Origin: an uncultured Pseudomonadota bacterium
GTDB lineage: Bacteria > Babelota > Babeliae > Babelales > JAUPTZ01
Reading direction: 5' to 3'
Length of the DNA: 64,000 bases
Assembly (NCBI GenBank): GCA_964429275.1
Contig: CAYSBJ010000002.1
Coordinates: forward strand, 1-64,000
Shown here: positions 42,001 through 51,000 of the stretch, piece after piece
How positions within the stretch are numbered: the first letter of the stretch is position 1
How the letters are laid out: each line of letters opens with the position of its first letter
Made by a program: the position numbers

Positions 42001-45000
42001 GAAACAGCAGATGGACATGGTCCGATTGGCCAAGCAGCGGTAAAAGGGTTTTTGGGTAGAAATGCCGCATACTTTACCGATATTAAGGTGAATTCGCTTG
42101 CGCAAGGTGTTGCTGCTGGTATGGTATACCGCACCATGTTTGTCGTGGGGGATGAGTTTGAAAAAGCTATTCGTAATGAAGGTGGCCAGGTTTGCGACGC
42201 GGTCTTTGGTGGGTCGCTTCGCACACTTCGAGGAATGTTTTTTAGATTAAAGCACTGGTTGTTTAATGGTGGCGCGTATCCGTATACCCTTGAGCAGGTA
42301 GGTTTTTGGCGTGAAGAAGTTGTAGAGGTCATTCTAAAAGGACTTGATAAGGCTGCGACAAAAGCGCAAGGGGGCGTTGCCGATGGTTTTGGTACGCGAG
42401 CCCGAGGGCAGAACAAGTTCGATGTTTTTGCCGGTGTTCCAATGGAAGAATGCGAAGTAGAAAATGCAAATGTTGTGGATGCAACTTGGGTGGAGATGGT
42501 TGGTGGCTTTGCTCGCGACCTTGACCGTTTGACCATGCGTATAGAATTTCCTAAGTTGTACTACAGCCCTGGCGACGATCATGATGAACAAGTGATGATG
42601 ATTGACGGCCGTGCTGACATTCTGGACATGGCGACCCGCATTCAGGAAATGCTGCAGCTTATTAAGCAGCACATTCTGTTGCCGTCTCGTACCCTTAAAG
42701 ATTTGGCGATTGGCGACCTAAAAGTTATACTGCCGCGCTTGATTGATGAGGTAAATGCACGATTTAAGCTTTTTGAAGGTATGGTTAAGAATTACCATGG
42801 TATCTATGTAAAAGCAAACTCCTCAGGCGGTGATAGCAGTGCTTCTAAGCCTGCAGCGGCGCGATCAGGCGGCTCGCTTTTCCCTGGGCTTGACTCGTAA
42901 TATTACGTAAAGGAATACCGTATATGAAATTTGTCTCCTTAGTATTGAGTCTTTTTTGTGCGACGTCAGCTGTTTCGGCAGCACTGATTGATCAGCCAAC
43001 TATTATTTCGCTGAGTCGCTTTAGCCCAGATCGCGTGGCGGCCGCGCGAAGTCATTTTGAGCGCCGTATGTATCAAATAAAGCGTACGACATTGGGTGTT
43101 ATTGGAGTTCTTGGGTTGGGTGTTGTAGTCAAATATGGTCCAAGCTGGTGGCGTGCCTATAAAGGCCCGTCTGATGCTGAAAAGGAAAAGACAGAAGAAA
43201 TGAGAGTGTTGGATGAGCGCTTGCAGAACGCACTTCGCCGTCTAGACGCGGTGAAAGATGATGCAGCGCGTACTGTTGCTTCTAGTGAGCTAGCTGCGGT
43301 AAATGGTGCAATTGAAGCAAAATTAAACTTATACAGACAAAAAGATGGTATTAAACGAGTTGAGGCTCCAACGCAGCAACAAGGTATTGTGGGCAGCACA
43401 CTCCGCAACGCTGCATTGCTTGGTATTGCCGGCTTGGTGTTAACTTCTGGCCAGCAAATATTCCGTGTCTGTTCTGGCACTATTGAAGAAGTATTGTATC
43501 TGTGGTTTAAGGGGTATGAATATTGGTATTCGCCACTAGTAGAACAGCTTCGTGCTTTAATGAACGAATTACGTGAAAGTTTCTATCAAGCGCGTAAATT
43601 GGCGCAACAAAGTAATAATGATCCGCAACTGCTTCTCGCTCGCCAGCAGCGTCGTGGTGCCGTTTCATACGAAATTAGCACGCACTATCGTCTTGATATT
43701 GTAACTATGTATCAGCGTATGGTTTCGACGGTTGAGCGTCTAGTTGCACTGATGTTTATCATGGCGCCTATGGACCATCATCCGGTAATGCAGCAGCACA
43801 TTGTGGCTATTGCCGGCAAATTAAATCGTGTTTCTGAATTGCTTGAGTGCGACTTGAATGAAAATACGCATGGTATGTTGACGCTGTATAGCAATGCGAC
43901 TCTTGATGCGTATTATGAATGCGTTGAGGCGATTACAATATTCCAGAGCACGTACAGTACGTATCTACGTCGATAATTTGTAGCAAAACTAACTTGGATT
44001 GCTTCGTCACTGCTTTTCTCGCAATGACCAGTCTGCCGAAGCAGTTTGCGTAGCCACTTTGAGTGTGGTTCGCCTTTATAAATTAGTGTTAGATTCACTT
44101 GCTTCAAGCGAGTCATTGCGAGCGATAGCGAAGCAATCCAGATGAAGGCTAAAAAACTTTTTCTTATTATTTTTCTTTTCTACACCGCGCCTACTATGGC
44201 CTGTGTATGGTGCGATCCAGAGGCTCCCATTGCGGTGCTTCAAGAGCTTCATGAAGATGCACGCTACGAGCTTAATCGTTCAGCCCTCTTGAGTGGGCTC
44301 AACGTTGCGTTGTCGCCTGAGGCGTTGCCAGCCTGCTTGAATCAGGCGCTGACAAGCCAGGAACCACCACTTGAAGATCGTTTTTATACGGAATATCTTT
44401 CCAGTTATTTCCCCAAAGCAGATGTTATTACCAAAATCATCTTTCCAACGATGTGTACGGTCGCCGTTAACCGCGCATTAAACAGTATCATTTTTGTCCT
44501 GACCAATGTGCCATGGCGATATTTTGTAAACAACGCAGAGGATCTTTCCTTTGAGTCTGTGCACGTTATGATTATCGAAGAGCAGCTGGGTCGTATCATT
44601 GCCGCAGTTAAAAAGCTTTCTATCGATGCGAGAACACATTTGGTTTGCCTTCCTGCTGCGGCGTCAGAAGAGGGTTGGAATCTTGGTACAGCAGCAAGAA
44701 AACGAGAAATGCTTGTGCTACAGCTGTGGAAAAAAGAACAGCGAATGCAGTATTTCTTTACTATGGTTGCGCTCTGTATTGATACGATGATTCACCGTCT
44801 CTATGGGTTTATTCGTCGTGAAAATTATAGTGAGGCCTATTCATTGCATCGCAAAGTAGAAAAAATGGTTGAGGGGCTCAAGGGAAGTCGATACGAAGAA
44901 CAGTATGTGCTGACTTCGCGTCTTTTCTTCGATCTCCTAAAGATGCTTGAGCAGCGCTTGTGGTACCAGCATGACCAAGATGCAGCAAAAAGACGCGATG

Positions 45001-48000: not shown

Positions 48001-51000
48001 TTGATTCATATGAGGAGATTACGCCGGTGGCCGTCGTTTCTTAACTTTACCAGTTATTCCTGCCGGGGGGTGGTTTTTTGACGTTCCCCATGCGGGATAT
48101 ATATTGAAGTTGCGCCTCTGCCCGTTTCCTGTCACACTACTGTTTTCCAATTTTTAGTAGGTTTCTAACAGGTATTTCATGAGCGTAGCGCACACTCCTT
48201 TGATGGCCCAGTACCACCAGATCAAAGAAAATTATCCGGATGCCCTTCTCTTTTTTCAGGTAGGGGACTTTTATGAACTCTTTTTTGATGATGCGGTTCA
48301 AGCTGCTCGTTTTTTGGCTATAACGCTCACTAAGCGTGGCAAGAGCAATGGGATAGATATTCCGCTGTGCGGAGTGCCAGTGCATGCGCTTCACTTTTAT
48401 CTTACCAAGCTCGTTAAAGGTGGTTTTTCTGTGGCGCTCTGTGATCAACGATCCAAACCGCAGCCTGGTACCGTGGTAGAGCGTGCCGTGACCAAAGTAT
48501 ACACTCCTGGCACATTGACTGATGAGACCATGCTGAACGAAAAAACAGCATCGTATTTGTGTAGCGTTATGCTCGTGGCCGGTCATTATGAAATTGTAGC
48601 AGTGGAATTGTTGACGGCTCATTTAATGCAAACTTCAGTGCCGGTAAGCGATATACGCAGTCTTGAAGCAGAATTGTGTCGCTACATGCCGGATGAAGTG
48701 TTAGTGCTTGCCTCTGAAAGTGGGCTTGTTACCCTATGCAAAAAATGGGGCTATGTTGTAACACCAGTTCCTGGTTTTGCTGCTGATGCGCATGGCCTGC
48801 TTCGTGGTTATTTGGAGCGAGTGCAGCCAGCGATTATTGAACAGTTAACGGCACCGGTTTTCTATGAACCAACCAATTATGTTCTTCTCGATGCGGCGAC
48901 ACAGCGTAACATTGCCTTGATTCATAATTATGATGAAGGAAGTGATACGCATACGCTGTGTCATGCTGTTGATAACACAACGACGCCGATGGGAGCTCGT
49001 CTCTTAAAAAAATGGTTAGTGCGTCCATTACGTGATCAGAACTTGATAGAACAACGGCTTGAGGTTGTTTCATTGTTTGTGCAAAGCGTGACACTGACTG
49101 CACAGCTTACGCAGTTGTTGGCTCAAATCTCTGATATCGAACGTATTATTGGTCGCGTTGTATTAGTGCGCGCGACACTTGCTGATTATCGCGCATTACG
49201 TGATTCTCTTGTTTCAGTCGCGCAGGTACAAACGCTTCTTGCACCGTATGCAGGTAGCATCTCATTGCTTGGCTATCTCCTTGATCGTTGCGGCCAGTAT
49301 CAAGAGCTCTATGCACTGCTTGAGCGCAGTATTTATGATGGTGAAGAAGAGTGGAAGATTAAGGCCGGGTATAGTGAACAACTTGATATGGCTCGGGCTC
49401 TTTCCCGCGACGGACATGCACATATTCAGCGTTATGCTGCAGAGCAGGCGACCGTGCACGATATTCCTTCACTCAAAATTTTATATACTTCCGTTTCCGG
49501 GTATTTCATCGAAGTTACTAAGACTCACATTCATAAAGTGCCGGAAACGTATCGCCATATTCAAACACTTGCGGGGCGCGAGCGTTATGTAACGGCTGAA
49601 CTTTCAGCGTTAGAGCGGGCTCTGCATAGCGCTCATGATGACGTGCTTGCAATGGAAAAAGAATTGTATGCAACAGTGGAATCCTTTGTTCGTAGTTTTT
49701 CTGGTTCTCTGCGACGCACCGCGGCTGCACTGGCAACGCTTGATGTGCTTTGTGGTTTTGCGCAAACAGCTTCTATGCATCGCTATGTGCGCCCAAATTT
49801 CACGCATGATCAAATAATTTCTGTTACCGCAGGGCGACATCCGGTAGTGGAGTTAGCGTTAGAGGTAGGTCATTTTGTAGCCAATGACATTGCTTTAACA
49901 CCCATGCAGCGTTTGTGGATGGTGACCGGGCCGAACATGGGAGGTAAATCTACCTATTTACGCCAAGTCGCTCTAATCTCTTTGCTCGCGCAGTGTGGCA
50001 GTTTTGTGCCGGCAACGAGTGCAACCTTGATGTTGGTTGATCGTATTTTTACCCGTATTGGCGCTGGCGACAACGTTGCGCAAGGAAAGAGTACTTTCTT
50101 AATCGAAATGGAAGAGGCAGCAACTATTTGTACTCAGGCAACGGCACAAAGTTTAGTTATCCTTGATGAAGTTGGCCGAGGGACCAGTACGGAAGATGGT
50201 CGTGCGCTTGCGCAGGCAATTATTGAGTATGTTGCCCATACCGTTGGCTGCTTAACCTTATTTGCAACTCACTATCATGAATTGACCGATCTTGCCGCGC
50301 AGCAACCGGGAATCGCCAACTATCACATGGTTTGCTTTAAGCGGGGTGACACGCTTCATTTTCTCCATCGCATTGAACCGGGGGTTGCCACGGCAAGCTT
50401 TGGGGTTGATGTGGCGCATCTTGCCCAGTTGCCAGCCCCCATCATTGCCCGTGCGCGCCAACTGCTTGCACAGCCATTTATCTATGCACCGGCAAAGGCA
50501 TTACCTGAATTTTCTCAAAAAGATGTACGAGAAGCAGAAATTTGTAGAGAATTGCGATCGCTTGATGTTGACGCACTTTCTCCCCGCGCTGCATTTGAGC
50601 TTGTATACCGACTGAAAGCCCAGTTGAACGAAGAAAAATAATGAGATAAAAGGGTTTGTAATGGGTGTTTTAATGATGGCGTTGCTGTCCAGCGTTATGT
50701 GCGGTTATCTTAATGGAACAGATGCTCCTGTTGTATCGTTATCTGTAGTATCGCCAGCGTCGCCGCTCGACTCATTAGCGAGAACTCGGCGTCTTACTGC
50801 TACATCGTTTAGCTCTGAAGACTGTGATGGGGAAATTGATTCTTTATATGGCGACTCACCACTGCCGGATTCTCCTGATGAGCGCCGCGAAGCAGCATCA
50901 AAACTGAGTGAAATTTCAGGAATTGATAGTCCGGCGTTGCGCGAGGCTGAGTCCGATTGGTATGCAAAATTACCAGCAGATTTGTGGGATCGAACTAAAC

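What a model noticed while it worked through the whole genome (the two positions that open the first line are those of the whole stretch)
44142..48044. Babelota-specific secreted 1300-aa protein with an orphan P-loop NTPase domain whose nearest folds are kinesin motors
g00486 has a signal peptide and a ~1000-aa core conserved (31-77% identity) across Babelales-like sequences but without any Pfam, NCBIfam, Swiss-Prot or UniRef50 match. Its first domain (residues ~350-820) carries an invariant Walker A (GVGKST), followed by invariant DNSSSQ and DLPAQ motifs placed like the switch I and switch II of kinesin/myosin; the AF2 model finds no PDB relative by Foldseek, and in a scan of 48,161 solved chains eight of its best ten matches are named kinesin motor domains (the other two are chains of ciliary central-apparatus entries), all at weak scores; a protein-language-model look-up instead lists GTPase clusters (MMR_HSR1, GBP), which belong to the same broad class [...]
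Evidence so far: No row in pfam/ncbifam/swissprot/uniref50 tables; 18 homologues, all unnamed; invariant columns; AF2 pLDDT 81.0 for residues 291-1300 and 76.9 for 350-820; Foldseek PDB: no hit at E<=0.001; profile search of PDB sequences finds only a P-loop stretch, E 0.67; ESM Atlas features: best scores 0.87-0.83, under the 0.9 line, so a lead only.
(Added by a program. Inside this text positions count along the whole contig: contig position 1 is position 1 of the stretch shown here. "Call 12" and the like, gene names such as g00115 and contig names such as C1 are that model's own, and its searches are not shown. The text may have been shortened before it was handed on; [...] marks where a part breaks off. 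The agent that wrote the report below was given it as the finding of a first reader that could run no searches.)

Follow-up and report, generated by a model that had tools for sequence, protein, structure and literature searches.

The report
Orphan exported NTPase-pseudokinase protein of Dependentiae
This is a real, well-conserved gene found only in one group of intracellular parasitic bacteria; it encodes an exported protein that joins a new kind of GTPase-like nucleotide-burning domain to a degenerate kinase-like domain, and its resemblance to kinesin motors is too weak to count as kinship.

Summary
ORF 44142-48044(+) encodes 1300 aa with a conserved N-terminal signal-like segment and no Pfam, NCBIfam or PDB-sequence match. 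The family is larger than reported: 251 word-index hits, and 188 clusters among 1.84 billion representatives, 179 of them at E<=1e-10. It is closed and clade-patchy, found in 67 of 201 phylum genomes.

AF2 with a 98-row alignment gives confident models (pLDDT 90.5 and 91.1, pTM 0.90). The layout is a lineage-specific N-extension, a roughly 530-aa P-loop domain, a helical linker, a protein-kinase-like (PKL) domain without conserved catalytic Lys/HRD/DFG, and a conserved C-terminal module.

Residue logic points to a GTPase-like TRAFAC core:
- Lys to Walker B Asp is 44 residues (RhoA 41, kinesin Eg5 154).
- A hairpin follows switch I.
- D-L-P-A-Q carries Gln at D+4, as in Ras and G-alpha.
- The kinesin/myosin switch I Arg and switch II Glu are absent, and so is NKxD.

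Best reading: an exported NTP-driven switch or enzyme coupled to a pseudokinase scaffold, probably acting at or in the host. This is a new family of a known class. The function is inferred, not shown.

The parts
43995..44140 (.). Imperfect palindromic dispersed-repeat element directly upstream of the start codon. It is not part of the protein and is given as context for the choice of start.
   Evidence: RNA fold -59.3 kcal/mol, z -5.9, with 0 of 200 shuffles folding as well. Its arm motif occurs 17 times in the genome (8 forward, 9 reverse), against 0/0 for the reversed-pattern control.
44142..48044 (+). Whole ORF, 1300 aa plus stop.
   Evidence: There is a single copy in the organism's own genome.
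44142..44201 (+). Signal-peptide-like N-terminus (residues 1-20): basic MKAKK, a hydrophobic run, then T-M-A before Cys21.
   Evidence: Translation. A hydrophobic N-terminus is present in 84 of 121 family proteins. No signal-peptide predictor was available.
44202..45089 (+). Lineage-specific N-terminal extension (residues 21-316). It starts with a C-x-W-C motif and is present only in the roughly 1270-1350-aa forms.
   Evidence: Twelve long forms appear among the 120 listed hits. C-x-W-C follows the hydrophobic segment in P0003-P0012. The region has no Pfam match.
45090..46691 (+). Large P-loop NTPase domain (residues 317-850, i.e. core 27-560). It holds most of the invariant residues of the family.
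   Evidence: Invariant columns. AF2 domain model with pLDDT 91.1 and pTM 0.90. Fold hits span model residues 53-497.
45885..45911 (+). Walker A / P-loop, F-V-D-G-V-G-K-S-T (residues 582-590).
   Evidence: D584, G585, V586, G587, K588 and T590 are 180/180. The motif follows strand core 285-291 and leads into helix core 298-311.
45975..45992 (+). Switch I-like loop, D-N-S-S-S-Q (residues 612-617).
   Evidence: N613 179/180, S615 180/180, S616 176 Ser and 4 Thr. It lies in the loop between the P-loop helix and the hairpin.
46023..46079 (+). Walker B strand plus switch II-like crest: V-V-I-A-D-L-P-A-Q, then the invariant x-S-H-F-T-Y-K-P-D-G (residues 628-646).
   Evidence: D632 180, P634 180, A635 177 Ala and 3 Gly, Q636 178, S638 180, H639 179, K643 178, G646 180. 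Strands core 330-335 and 338-342 form a hairpin with a 2-residue turn.
46533..46583 (+). Invariant Arg-rich motif D-F-x-S-M-Y-x-R-S-S-R-E-N-I-R-x-N (residues 798-814), at the end of strand core 503-510 and the start of helix core 517-533.
   Evidence: R805, R808 and R812 180/180; E809 179; M802, Y803 and N814 179. Its role is unknown; it may be a phosphate- or substrate-binding loop (inference).
46692..46961 (+). Helical linker (residues 851-940).
   Evidence: DSSP helices core 562-586, 597-610 and 613-638.
46962..47816 (+). Protein-kinase-like (PKL) fold domain, weakly conserved and probably a pseudokinase (residues 941-1225).
47817..48041 (+). Conserved C-terminal module (residues 1226-1300) with K-D(core 957) and D(core 971)-F.
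   Evidence: Core D957 171/180 and core D971 177/180. The module is kept as a separate match (E 1e-15 to 1e-29) even where the middle of the protein has diverged.

Best explanation
The gene encodes a Sec-exported multidomain protein. Its conserved engine is a new, sequence-orphan member of the TRAFAC class of P-loop NTPases, the class that holds GTPases, kinesin and myosin.

Proposed chemistry (inferred):
- Lys588 and Thr590 of the P-loop hold the phosphates and Mg2+.
- A Ser of the invariant S615-S616 pair in the switch I loop is the third Mg2+ ligand.
- Asp632 is the Walker B Asp at the end of the strand that follows an antiparallel hairpin.
- The backbone NH of Ala635 (D+3) and the side chain of Gln636 (D+4) position the attacking water, as in Ras and G-alpha.
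- Invariant Asn613 may add an intrinsic 'finger'.
- There is no NKxD motif, so base preference is open.

Nucleotide-dependent movement of the two switch loops would then be passed to the fused, catalytically degenerate kinase-fold domain and the conserved C-terminal module, which would serve as a binding scaffold.

The protein carries a signal peptide, and NTPs are expected outside the cytoplasm only where host nucleotides reach. I therefore place its action in the periplasm-host interface or, after secretin-dependent or vesicle release, in the host cell.

Shown: the ORF, its conservation, the exported-type N-terminus, the motifs, confident models, and the class-level fold leads. Inferred: hydrolysis chemistry, location, pseudokinase status and host-directed role.
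For: - Real, constrained gene. There are 251 homologues and more than 60 invariant columns in 98 sequences. The key residues stay invariant in 180 members. The gene is single-copy in its own genome.
- Closed family. It has 188 hits at E<=1e-3, of which 179 are at <=1e-10, among 1.84 billion representatives.
- Export. A hydrophobic N-terminus is present in 84 of 121 family proteins. The organism's own genome has 3 secretin-domain ORFs and several TLC nucleotide-translocase ORFs.
- Export, literature. Passages of PMC4776705 report type II secretion components and ATP/ADP translocases in TM6 genomes. Passages of PMC6561590 report that 44% of CDS in one Dependentiae isolate carry signal peptides, with secreted ORFans proposed as effectors.
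- TRAFAC topology. In both AF2 models the P-loop helix is followed by a long loop that holds the invariant N-S-S-S. Next comes a 6-residue strand, a 2-residue turn and a 5-residue strand that ends in the invariant Asp. This matches the class definition quoted in PMC9599734.
- Spacing. Lys to Asp is 44 residues, against RhoA 41 and Eg5 154 from the residue numbers in that paper.
- Walker B crest. Gln is at D+4 in 178/180, and the D+3 position is Gly in 3 of 180.
- Fold lists. They are made up almost wholly of TRAFAC proteins. VIA rows are kinesins, YqeH and pre-60S chains. Foldseek rows include Nog1-TAP pre-60S particles, SynDLP, Gs alpha, myosin, Toc34, IRG proteins and RF3.
- PKL domain. All 50 of the top 50 VIA rows and all listed Foldseek rows are kinase-fold proteins. 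The catalytic positions are not conserved.
Against: - I saw no coordinates. The antiparallel pairing and the roles of individual residues are read from the secondary-structure string and motif positions only.
- Profile-profile comparison with Der, EF-Tu, Tmk and FtsY from the same order aligned only the Walker A. The best score was to thymidylate kinase, which is not TRAFAC (73%, 23 columns).
- G3 has Ala where GTPases have Gly, and no NKxD exists. It therefore fails strict GTPase membership.
- Very strong conservation and a single copy look more like a housekeeping enzyme than a typical fast-evolving effector.
- The family was nevertheless not found in 134 of the 201 sampled genomes.
- Nothing shows that the protein leaves the periplasm.
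- With 44% of CDS carrying signal peptides in a relative, that feature alone says little about a host-directed role.
Confidence: 0.42

Rival explanations
1. The first domain is a diverged kinesin/myosin-type motor ATPase. It would be either a secreted bacterial mimic of a host cytoskeletal motor or an ancient transfer of one, with N-S-S-S as switch I and D-L-P-A-Q as switch II.
For: - Nine of the top ten and 19 of the top 30 VIA-wide rows are named kinesin or kinesin-like (Vik1) motor domains. Each spans the whole domain (model 53-497), with 143-174 aligned residues.
- Myosins also appear.
- Strands lie N-terminal to the P-loop strand, as in motors.
- An invariant Asn just before an invariant Ser-Ser recalls the Asn(S-4)/Ser(S-1)/Ser(SwI) trio described for kinesin and myosin in PMC9599734.
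Against: - Lys to Walker B Asp is 44 residues, against 154 in Eg5. The strand-strand-helix block that motors carry between the P-loop helix and switch I is therefore missing.
- Gln stands in place of the switch I Arg in 169/180.
- A hydrophobic residue stands in place of the switch II Glu at D+5 in 179/180.
- Ala, not Gly, is at D+3.
- The Asn is at S-3 or S-2, not S-4.
- No sequence relative exists outside the family.
Confidence: 0.1
2. The P-loop domain is a phosphotransferase (a P-loop kinase-like enzyme) acting on a small molecule or envelope polymer in the periplasm, using host-derived ATP. The Arg-rich R-x-x-R-x-x-x-R motif would serve as a lid.
For: - The Walker A flavour D-G-x-G-K-S-T is closest to thymidylate kinase in profile-profile comparison (probability 73%, E 3e-5, 23 columns).
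- An unusually large number of invariant residues spread over about 500 aa suggests a substrate-specific enzyme rather than a simple switch.
- Three invariant Arg residues sit at the start of a helix.
- The genome imports host nucleotides, so ATP must cross the periplasm.
Against: - Only the Walker A aligns.
- The model has a hairpin after switch I rather than an all-parallel kinase sheet.
- No named P-loop kinase is among the 50 VIA-wide rows shown. That absence is weak evidence only.
- No substrate can be named.
Confidence: 0.2
3. It is a cytoplasmic or inner-membrane-anchored housekeeping GTPase, for example a ribosome-assembly factor standing in for missing YlqF/Obg-type GTPases. The N-terminal hydrophobic segment would then be an anchor, not a signal peptide.
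For: - No YlqF/RbgA match over the curated cut-off was found in 17 genomes of the order.
- Passages of PMC4776705 report Obg as missing in TM6.
- The gene is a strongly conserved single copy.
Against: - A basic N-terminus followed by a hydrophobic run and small residues is the exported orientation, in 84 of 121 members.
- The family was not found in 134 of 201 genomes of the phylum, including 0 of 67 in the largest family. An essential assembly factor would not show this.
- The protein has 1000-1300 aa and a kinase-fold domain, unlike any assembly GTPase.
- There is no NKxD.
Confidence: 0.06

Closest known systems
Ras-like / G-alpha type TRAFAC GTPases (G1-G2-G3 core)
   Same: - The order and spacing of the Walker A Lys, the switch I Ser/Thr and the Walker B Asp agree. 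The offsets here are 27 and 44 residues, against 19 and 41 in RhoA by the residue numbers in PMC9599734.
- A hairpin lies between switch I and Walker B.
- Gln is at D+4 (178/180).
- A hydrophobic residue, not Glu, is at D+1.
   Different: - Ala replaces the G3 Gly (177/180).
- Ser rather than Thr is in switch I.
- There is no NKxD.
- About 250 aa with two further strands precede the P-loop strand, and large insertions follow switch II.
- No sequence-profile relation was found beyond the Walker A.
Kinesin and myosin motor domains
   Same: - Both use a Ser-based switch I with a nearby invariant Asn.
- Both have strands N-terminal to the P-loop strand.
   Different: - Scores are under the noise line.
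- The roughly 100-aa block between the P-loop helix and switch I is missing.
- There is no switch I Arg and no switch II Glu.
- The Asn is offset by one or two residues.
- Track-binding elements could not be tested.
Circularly permuted GTPases of the YlqF/YawG type (YqeH is named in the output; that the pre-60S chains are Nog2, Nug1 or Lsg1 is my recollection, not stated by the tool)
   Same: - Beta-alpha units come before the P-loop strand.
- From recall, the V-G-K-S-T Walker A and the D-x-P-(G/A) Walker B flavour are shared.
   Different: - No NKxD or S-A-x motif is found in the N-terminal units.
- This protein is exported.
- Further core strands follow switch II.
Protein-kinase-like fold (RIO, Bud32, aminoglycoside phosphotransferase, actin-fragmin kinase, eukaryotic protein kinases), for the second domain
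   Different: - There is no conserved beta3 Lys, Gly-rich loop or HRD.
- The DFG-equivalent Asp is D in only 95 of 180.
- Foldseek E is at best 0.045.
- The best-conserved part is a C-terminal helical module, not the active-site cleft.
ROCO proteins (Roc GTPase-COR-kinase). This is an architectural analogy recalled from memory and was not tested.
   Same: A TRAFAC NTPase, a helical linker and a kinase-fold domain follow one another in one chain.
   Different: There is no detectable homology. The kinase-fold domain here looks inactive. The protein is exported and bacterial.

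Membership tests
TRAFAC class of P-loop NTPases | Walker A G-x-x-x-x-G-K-[ST] after a buried strand. | tested here: met
   V-D-G-V-G-K-S-T. G585, G587, K588 and T590 are 180/180. The motif follows strand core 285-291.
TRAFAC class of P-loop NTPases | The P-loop helix is followed by an elongated switch I loop with a conserved Ser/Thr (definition quoted in PMC9599734). | tested here: met
   The loop core 312-329 carries N323 (179/180), S325 (180/180) and S326 (176 Ser, 4 Thr).
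TRAFAC class of P-loop NTPases | Switch I leads into a strand antiparallel to the rest of the sheet and next to the Walker B strand. | tested here: inconclusive
   DSSP of both models shows strand 330-335, a 2-residue turn and strand 338-342 ending in D342, which is a hairpin. No coordinates were available to confirm the place of these strands in the core sheet.
TRAFAC class of P-loop NTPases | Walker B Asp at the end of a hydrophobic strand, with no catalytic Glu at D+1. | tested here: met
   V-[FYV]-I-A-D. D632 is 180/180, and D+1 is Leu in 173/180.
TRAFAC class of P-loop NTPases | Clear structural match to solved members. | tested here: inconclusive
   [not shown]
Kinesin/myosin motors | Switch I N-x-x-S-S-R, with Asn at S-4 and an Arg after the Ser pair. 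| tested here: not met
   The sequence is D-N-S-S-S-Q. The Asn is at S-3 or S-2, and Gln (169/180) stands where the Arg would be. The Asn(S-4) rule is from PMC9599734. The Arg is from recall.
Kinesin/myosin motors | Switch II D-x-x-G-x-E, with Gly at D+3 and Glu at D+5. | tested here: not met
   D+3 is Ala in 177/180. D+5 is V/I/M/L in 178/180, with no Glu among the residues listed for that column. The motif itself is recalled.
Kinesin/myosin motors | A long insert between the P-loop helix and switch I (Lys to Walker B Asp about 150 residues). | tested here: not met
   The distance here is 44 residues. In Eg5, Thr112(K+1) to Asp265 gives 154 by the numbers in PMC9599734.
Kinesin/myosin motors | Motor-domain fold match. 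| tested here: inconclusive
   [not shown]
Kinesin/myosin motors | Microtubule- or actin-binding surface and track-stimulated ATPase. | not testable with these tools
   Needs coordinates or biochemistry.
Classical GTPases (G1-G5) | G3 D-x-x-G. | tested here: not met
   The motif is D-L-P-A in 177/180 and D-L-P-G in 3/180. Gln at D+4 is present.
Classical GTPases (G1-G5) | G4 [NT]-K-x-D guanine-specificity motif. | tested here: not met
   No column of the NTPase domain has [NT][KQ]xD in more than 3 of 180 members.
Classical GTPases (G1-G5) | Profile-level sequence relation to GTPases of the same genomes (Der, EF-Tu). | tested here: inconclusive
   hhalign gave Der 15 columns at probability 5.9%, and EF-Tu nothing relevant.
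P-loop nucleotide kinases (thymidylate-kinase-like) | Relation beyond the Walker A, and an all-parallel sheet. | tested here: inconclusive
   hhalign gave 73% but over 23 Walker A columns only. The model shows a hairpin after switch I.
Protein-kinase-like superfamily (second domain) | Bilobal kinase fold. | tested here: met
   [not shown]
Protein-kinase-like superfamily (second domain) | Catalytic residues: beta3 Lys, HRD-type Asp and DFG Asp. | tested here: not met
   There is no conserved Lys or Gly-rich loop in strands core 686-717. The Asp at the DFG-equivalent position (core 824) is D in 95, N in 37 and E in 8 of 180. That position was inferred from the aligned ranges only: model 681-831 against TTK 519-669 and CDK2 0-151.

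The most novel reading that the evidence does not exclude
The first domain is a genuine bacterial offshoot of the kinesin/myosin branch of TRAFAC NTPases. On this reading it is a secreted, track- or partner-activated ATPase with a built-in Asn finger. Intracellular Dependentiae would deploy it on the cytoskeleton or organelles of their protist hosts, with the pseudokinase domain as the cargo- or target-binding part. It would be the first prokaryotic relative of eukaryotic cytoskeletal motors.
Probability: 0.08. Interest if true: 0.9.

Novelty: new variant of a known kind. Interest (0 to 1): 0.55.

Why it matters
Dependentiae are widespread, almost uncultured energy parasites of protists, and most of their exported proteins have no assigned function.

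This family is one of the longest and best-conserved of these unknowns. It can now be described as a concrete, testable machine: a GTPase-like P-loop engine with named catalytic residues, fused to a kinase-fold scaffold.

If it hydrolyses NTP outside the bacterial cytoplasm, it would be a rare case of an exported P-loop enzyme. It would also give a handle on how these bacteria act on their hosts.

For the evolution of P-loop proteins, it adds a TRAFAC lineage that mixes a Ras/G-alpha-type Walker B crest with a Ser-rich, Asn-bearing switch I.

Tried and rejected
- Sequence libraries: Pfam, NCBIfam and PDB sequences gave nothing at E<=10.
- Exhaustive profile search: it found only the family itself, with 188 hits. 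The 38 weakest hits, nine of them between 1e-10 and 1e-3, were not listed and could not be inspected.
- hhalign: the NTPase-domain profile was compared with Der (30 sequences), EF-Tu (16), Tmk (14) and FtsY (13), all taken from genomes of the same order. Only the Walker A aligned, so the class could not be discriminated this way.
- Missing comparison profiles: no kinesin, myosin or YlqF profile could be built from tool-given sequences. The YlqF model matched only Der-like ORFs below its cut-off, in 15 of 17 genomes. The Era model likewise hit mainly two-domain Der-like ORFs.
- BFVD viral structures: nothing, best E 0.11.
- ESM Atlas on core residues 225-545: GBP, MMR_HSR1 and RHD3 clusters at 0.81-0.78, below the 0.9 line, so a lead only.
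- Complex prediction: tested the idea that the conserved C-terminal module, whose N-[KR]-x-D resembles a G4 motif, docks on the NTPase domain. Inputs were NTPase residues 20-560, C-terminal residues 925-1010, GTP and Mg. The result was no verdict (score 0.00), which is no evidence either way.
- Sequencing runs: no RNA holder was listed, so expression could not be examined.
- Gene neighbourhood: a UvrA-like gene lies upstream in 9 of 14 loci and MutS downstream in 7 of 14. The two unnamed ORFs in between are conserved in 3 and 0 of 14. I read this as inherited gene order, not a functional link.
- Literature: four full-text searches found no paper describing this family. Supplementary tables of PMC4776705 and PMC6561590, which may list orthologue groups, were not opened.

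Full report
**1. The observation**

The window has an uninterrupted ORF at 44142-48044 on the + strand, 1300 aa with an ATG start.

No family library recognises the protein. Pfam gave 0 families at E<=10, and so did NCBIfam. Searches of PDB sequences found 0 with the single sequence and 0 with a profile of 98 family members.

The N-terminus is MKAKK, then a hydrophobic run, then T-M-A before Cys21, which is the layout of a Sec signal peptide. I had no signal-peptide predictor. A simple hydropathy scan found such a segment in 84 of 121 family proteins, and many of the remaining 37 start inside the conserved core or in obviously foreign sequence.

The database copy of this very protein (P0002, 1282 aa) was called from Met19 and so lacks the segment. 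The closest homologues (P0003-P0011) keep it in front of the same C-x-W-C motif, so the upstream ATG is the better start.

**2. The family**

The word-index search gave 251 proteins at E<=1e-3. The 120 listed have 77% to 34% identity. All are unnamed or 'hypothetical'. Where a source gives an organism, it is Candidatus Babeliales, Dependentiae, 'bacterium', or in one case an Epsilonproteobacteria-labelled MAG.

About a dozen are long forms of 1270-1350 aa, like this one. The rest are about 1000-1060 aa and lack residues 21 to about 316.

An exhaustive HMMER profile search of 1.84 billion cluster representatives found 188 proteins at E<=1e-3. Of these, 179 are at <=1e-10 and 145 at <=1e-30, and many are fragments. 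The family is therefore closed, with no tail of remote relatives. The 38 weakest hits were not shown.

In whole genomes the gene is single-copy in its own genome. It was found in 67 of 201 sampled genomes of the phylum (52 of 177 high-quality genomes, 46 of 120 genera), with a family-wise pattern:

| Family | Genomes with the gene / sampled |
|---|---|
| f11 | 22/23 |
| f12 | 9/9 |
| f7 | 4/4 |
| f1 | 3/3 |
| f3 | 0/67 |
| f2 | 0/9 |
| f6 | 0/13 |

A scan of one genome per species of all prokaryotes kept 80 loci. All are from MAG or uncultured records. Most are titled Dependentiae, Babeliales, Babelota or TM6, and some carry generic or probably wrong labels.

**3. Structure**

With a 98-row alignment, AF2 gave a confident model of residues 291-1300 (mean pLDDT 90.5, pTM 0.90). 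It also gave a confident model of the first domain alone, core residues 20-560 (pLDDT 91.1, pTM 0.90). Core numbering is full numbering minus 290.

Conservation is very uneven. Core 27-530 holds nearly all invariant residues. Core 650-935 is poorly conserved. The last 75 residues or so are conserved again.

**4. The second domain**

- Foldseek with the whole model gave no hit at E<=1e-3. Every listed row is a protein-kinase-fold protein, the best being GRK6 at E 0.045.
- All 50 rows shown are kinase-fold proteins, on model residues about 650-832. Examples:

|---|---|---|
| BRAF | 7.5 | rmsd 4.0, 123 aligned |
| an aminoglycoside phosphotransferase | 6.4 | |
| actin-fragmin kinase | 6.3 | 174 aligned over model 655-989 |
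| Rio2 | 6.1 | |
| PI4K II-alpha | 5.6 | 193 aligned |

The aligned ranges (model 681-831 against TTK 519-669, CDK2 0-151 and PAK1 250-413) run from the N-lobe to just past the DFG motif of those kinases. This places the DFG-equivalent near core Asp824-Trp825. That Asp is D in only 95 of 180 members (N in 37, E in 8). No conserved Lys or Gly-rich loop is seen in the N-lobe strands, and no HRD-like Asp.

I therefore read this domain as a kinase-fold scaffold that has lost, or never had, canonical catalysis. The invariant Arg (core 735) and the two Asp of the C-terminal module (core 957, 171/180; core 971, 177/180) remain unexplained.

**5. The first domain: what the fold searches say**

Foldseek found nothing at E<=1e-3. 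The best row is DdmD at E 0.12, and probabilities are at most 0.1. The weak rows are largely TRAFAC proteins: chains of Nog1-TAP pre-60S particles, SynDLP, Gs alpha, myosin-2 and myosin XI, Toc34, IRGa6 and IRGB10, RF3, and a mitoribosome entry holding GTPBP7.

|---|---|---|---|
| Kar3 | 5.4 | 4.0 | 158 |
| kinesin-13 | 5.4 | 4.7 | 161 |
| KLP-12 | 5.1 | | |
| KIF20A | 5.0 | | |

Taken together, the consistent signal is 'TRAFAC class with extra strands before the P-loop strand', not kinesin in particular.

**6. The first domain: what the residues say**

PMC9599734 (passages read) defines the TRAFAC class by three features:
- an elongated switch I loop after the P-loop helix;
- a conserved Ser/Thr in that loop that ligates Mg2+;
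- a following strand that runs antiparallel to the rest of the sheet.

The paper also states two family-specific arrangements. In Ras-like GTPases and G-alpha, the catalytic water is held by Gln at D+4 and the NH of Gly at D+3. In kinesin and myosin, a Ser is the switch I reference, Asn at S-4 inserts between the alpha and gamma phosphates, and Ser at S-1 helps.

In both models here the order of elements is:
1. The P-loop helix (core 298-311).
2. A loop holding V-D-N-S-S-S-Q.
3. A strand (330-335), a two-residue turn, and a strand (338-342) ending in the invariant Asp.
4. L-P-A-Q.

The sequence comparison gives these points:
- The Lys-to-Asp distance is 44 residues. In the same paper's numbers, RhoA has 41 (Thr19 is K+1, Asp59) and kinesin Eg5 has 154 (Thr112 is K+1, Asp265).
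- Gln636 is exactly at D+4 (178/180).
- The D+3 position is Ala in 177 and Gly in 3 of 180.
- Gln (169/180) stands where kinesin and myosin carry the switch I Arg.
- The D+5 position, where they carry Glu, is V/I/M/L (178/180).
- The invariant Asn613 lies three or two residues, not four, before the invariant serines.
- No [NT][KQ]xD motif is conserved anywhere in the domain, with at most 3 of 180 per column.

The engine therefore combines a Ras/G-alpha-like Walker B crest with a Ser-rich switch I that only loosely recalls motors. It lacks the guanine-specificity motif. It meets the class features I could test, but it fails the defining residues of kinesin/myosin and of strict GTPases.

Profile-profile comparison with Der, EF-Tu, Tmk and FtsY from genomes of the same order aligned only the Walker A. 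The best score was to thymidylate kinase (73%, 23 columns). That shows the D-G-x-G-K-S-T flavour and nothing beyond it.

Further invariant blocks have no counterpart that I can name. They suggest a specific substrate or partner site:
- S-H-F-T-Y-K-P-D-G after switch II;
- S-x-G-L-K-N;
- D-F-x-S-M-Y-x-R-S-S-R-E-N-I-R, with three Arg at 180/180.

**7. Where it acts**

The exported-type N-terminus is the rule in the family. The organism's own genome has three secretin-domain ORFs and several TLC nucleotide-translocase ORFs.

Passages of PMC4776705 report type II secretion components, two gspD copies and ATP/ADP translocases in all TM6 genomes studied. Passages of PMC6561590 report that 44% of the CDS of a cultured Dependentiae carry signal peptides, that this set is enriched in ORFans, and that vesicles bud from the cells early in infection.

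A P-loop enzyme outside the cytoplasm needs NTP. For an energy parasite, that means host nucleotides. This is why I place its action at the host interface or in the host. This step is inference.

Two observations cut against a typical effector: strong single-copy conservation, and partly conserved gene order between a UvrA-like gene (9 of 14 loci) and MutS (7 of 14).

**8. Verdict**

The finding is real and is a new, closed protein family. The kinesin reading is a reproducible but sub-threshold fold lead that the residue-level tests do not support.

The best-supported account is an exported TRAFAC-type NTPase with GTPase-like catalytic geometry, coupled to a pseudokinase-like scaffold. Its biological role is untested.

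I rate it a new variant of a known kind, with moderate interest. The bold reading, a bacterial relative of cytoskeletal motors, stays open at low probability.

Noticed in passing
window 43995-44140; also 16540-16572(-): A roughly 146-nt imperfect palindrome sits directly upstream of the start codon (RNA fold -59.3 kcal/mol, z -5.9). Its arms carry a motif of two conserved blocks separated by 4-16 bases. The motif occurs 17 times in the organism's own genome (8 forward, 9 reverse), against 0 for the reversed control. It looks like a small dispersed palindromic repeat. Odd N-termini of some homologues may come from read-through of similar repeats. That link was not tested.
   Followed up: partly
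window 44142-44213: The database copy of this protein (P0002, 1282 aa) starts at Met19 and so lacks the signal-like segment. In the long forms, a conserved C-x-W-C motif follows the hydrophobic segment directly (P0003-P0012). Its role is unknown: it could be a disulfide, a metal site or a lipid-anchor Cys.
   Followed up: partly
window 38880-41432 and 48179-50641: The neighbours are a UvrA-like ABC ATPase (850 aa) and a full MutS (domains I, III, IV and V), on the same strand. The UvrA-like gene lies upstream of the family gene in 9 of 14 loci from other genomes, and MutS lies downstream in 7 of 14.
   Followed up: partly
window 41512-42900, 42924-43976, 50661-51764, 51761-53197(-): Four ORFs of 350-478 aa have no Pfam match at E<=1e-3. 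The first is conserved next to the family gene in 3 of 14 loci, and the other three in none.
   Followed up: no
G000 contig C1, about 350.4-354.5 kb; also C1:344200-345204 and C2:125397-126740: There is a tandem run of ORFs matching the TLC nucleotide-translocase family, plus two more elsewhere. There are also three secretin-domain ORFs at C1:75375-75869, C1:134079-134546 and C1:139168-139641.
   Followed up: no
loci L028-L072 (other genomes of the order): The Era and YlqF models hit mainly the two-domain Der-like ORFs (about 435-490 aa). No YlqF match reached the curated cut-off in the 17 genomes searched. Classical Era and RbgA were thus not seen in those searched.
   Followed up: no
rows for families f5, f8 and f9 (e.g. 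G048, G067, G135): In some lineages the family protein is shorter (about 920-990 aa) and matches the profile in two or three pieces. The N-terminal NTPase half and the last 70-90 residues or so are kept, while the kinase-fold middle has diverged.
   Followed up: no
loci L121, L123, L124, L169, L172 and others: Many MAG records that encode this Dependentiae-restricted family are titled 'uncultured Pseudomonadota bacterium'. One is titled 'Campylobacterota bacterium' and one 'Alteromonas naphthalenivorans'. These titles are probably taxonomic mislabels of the records.
   Followed up: no
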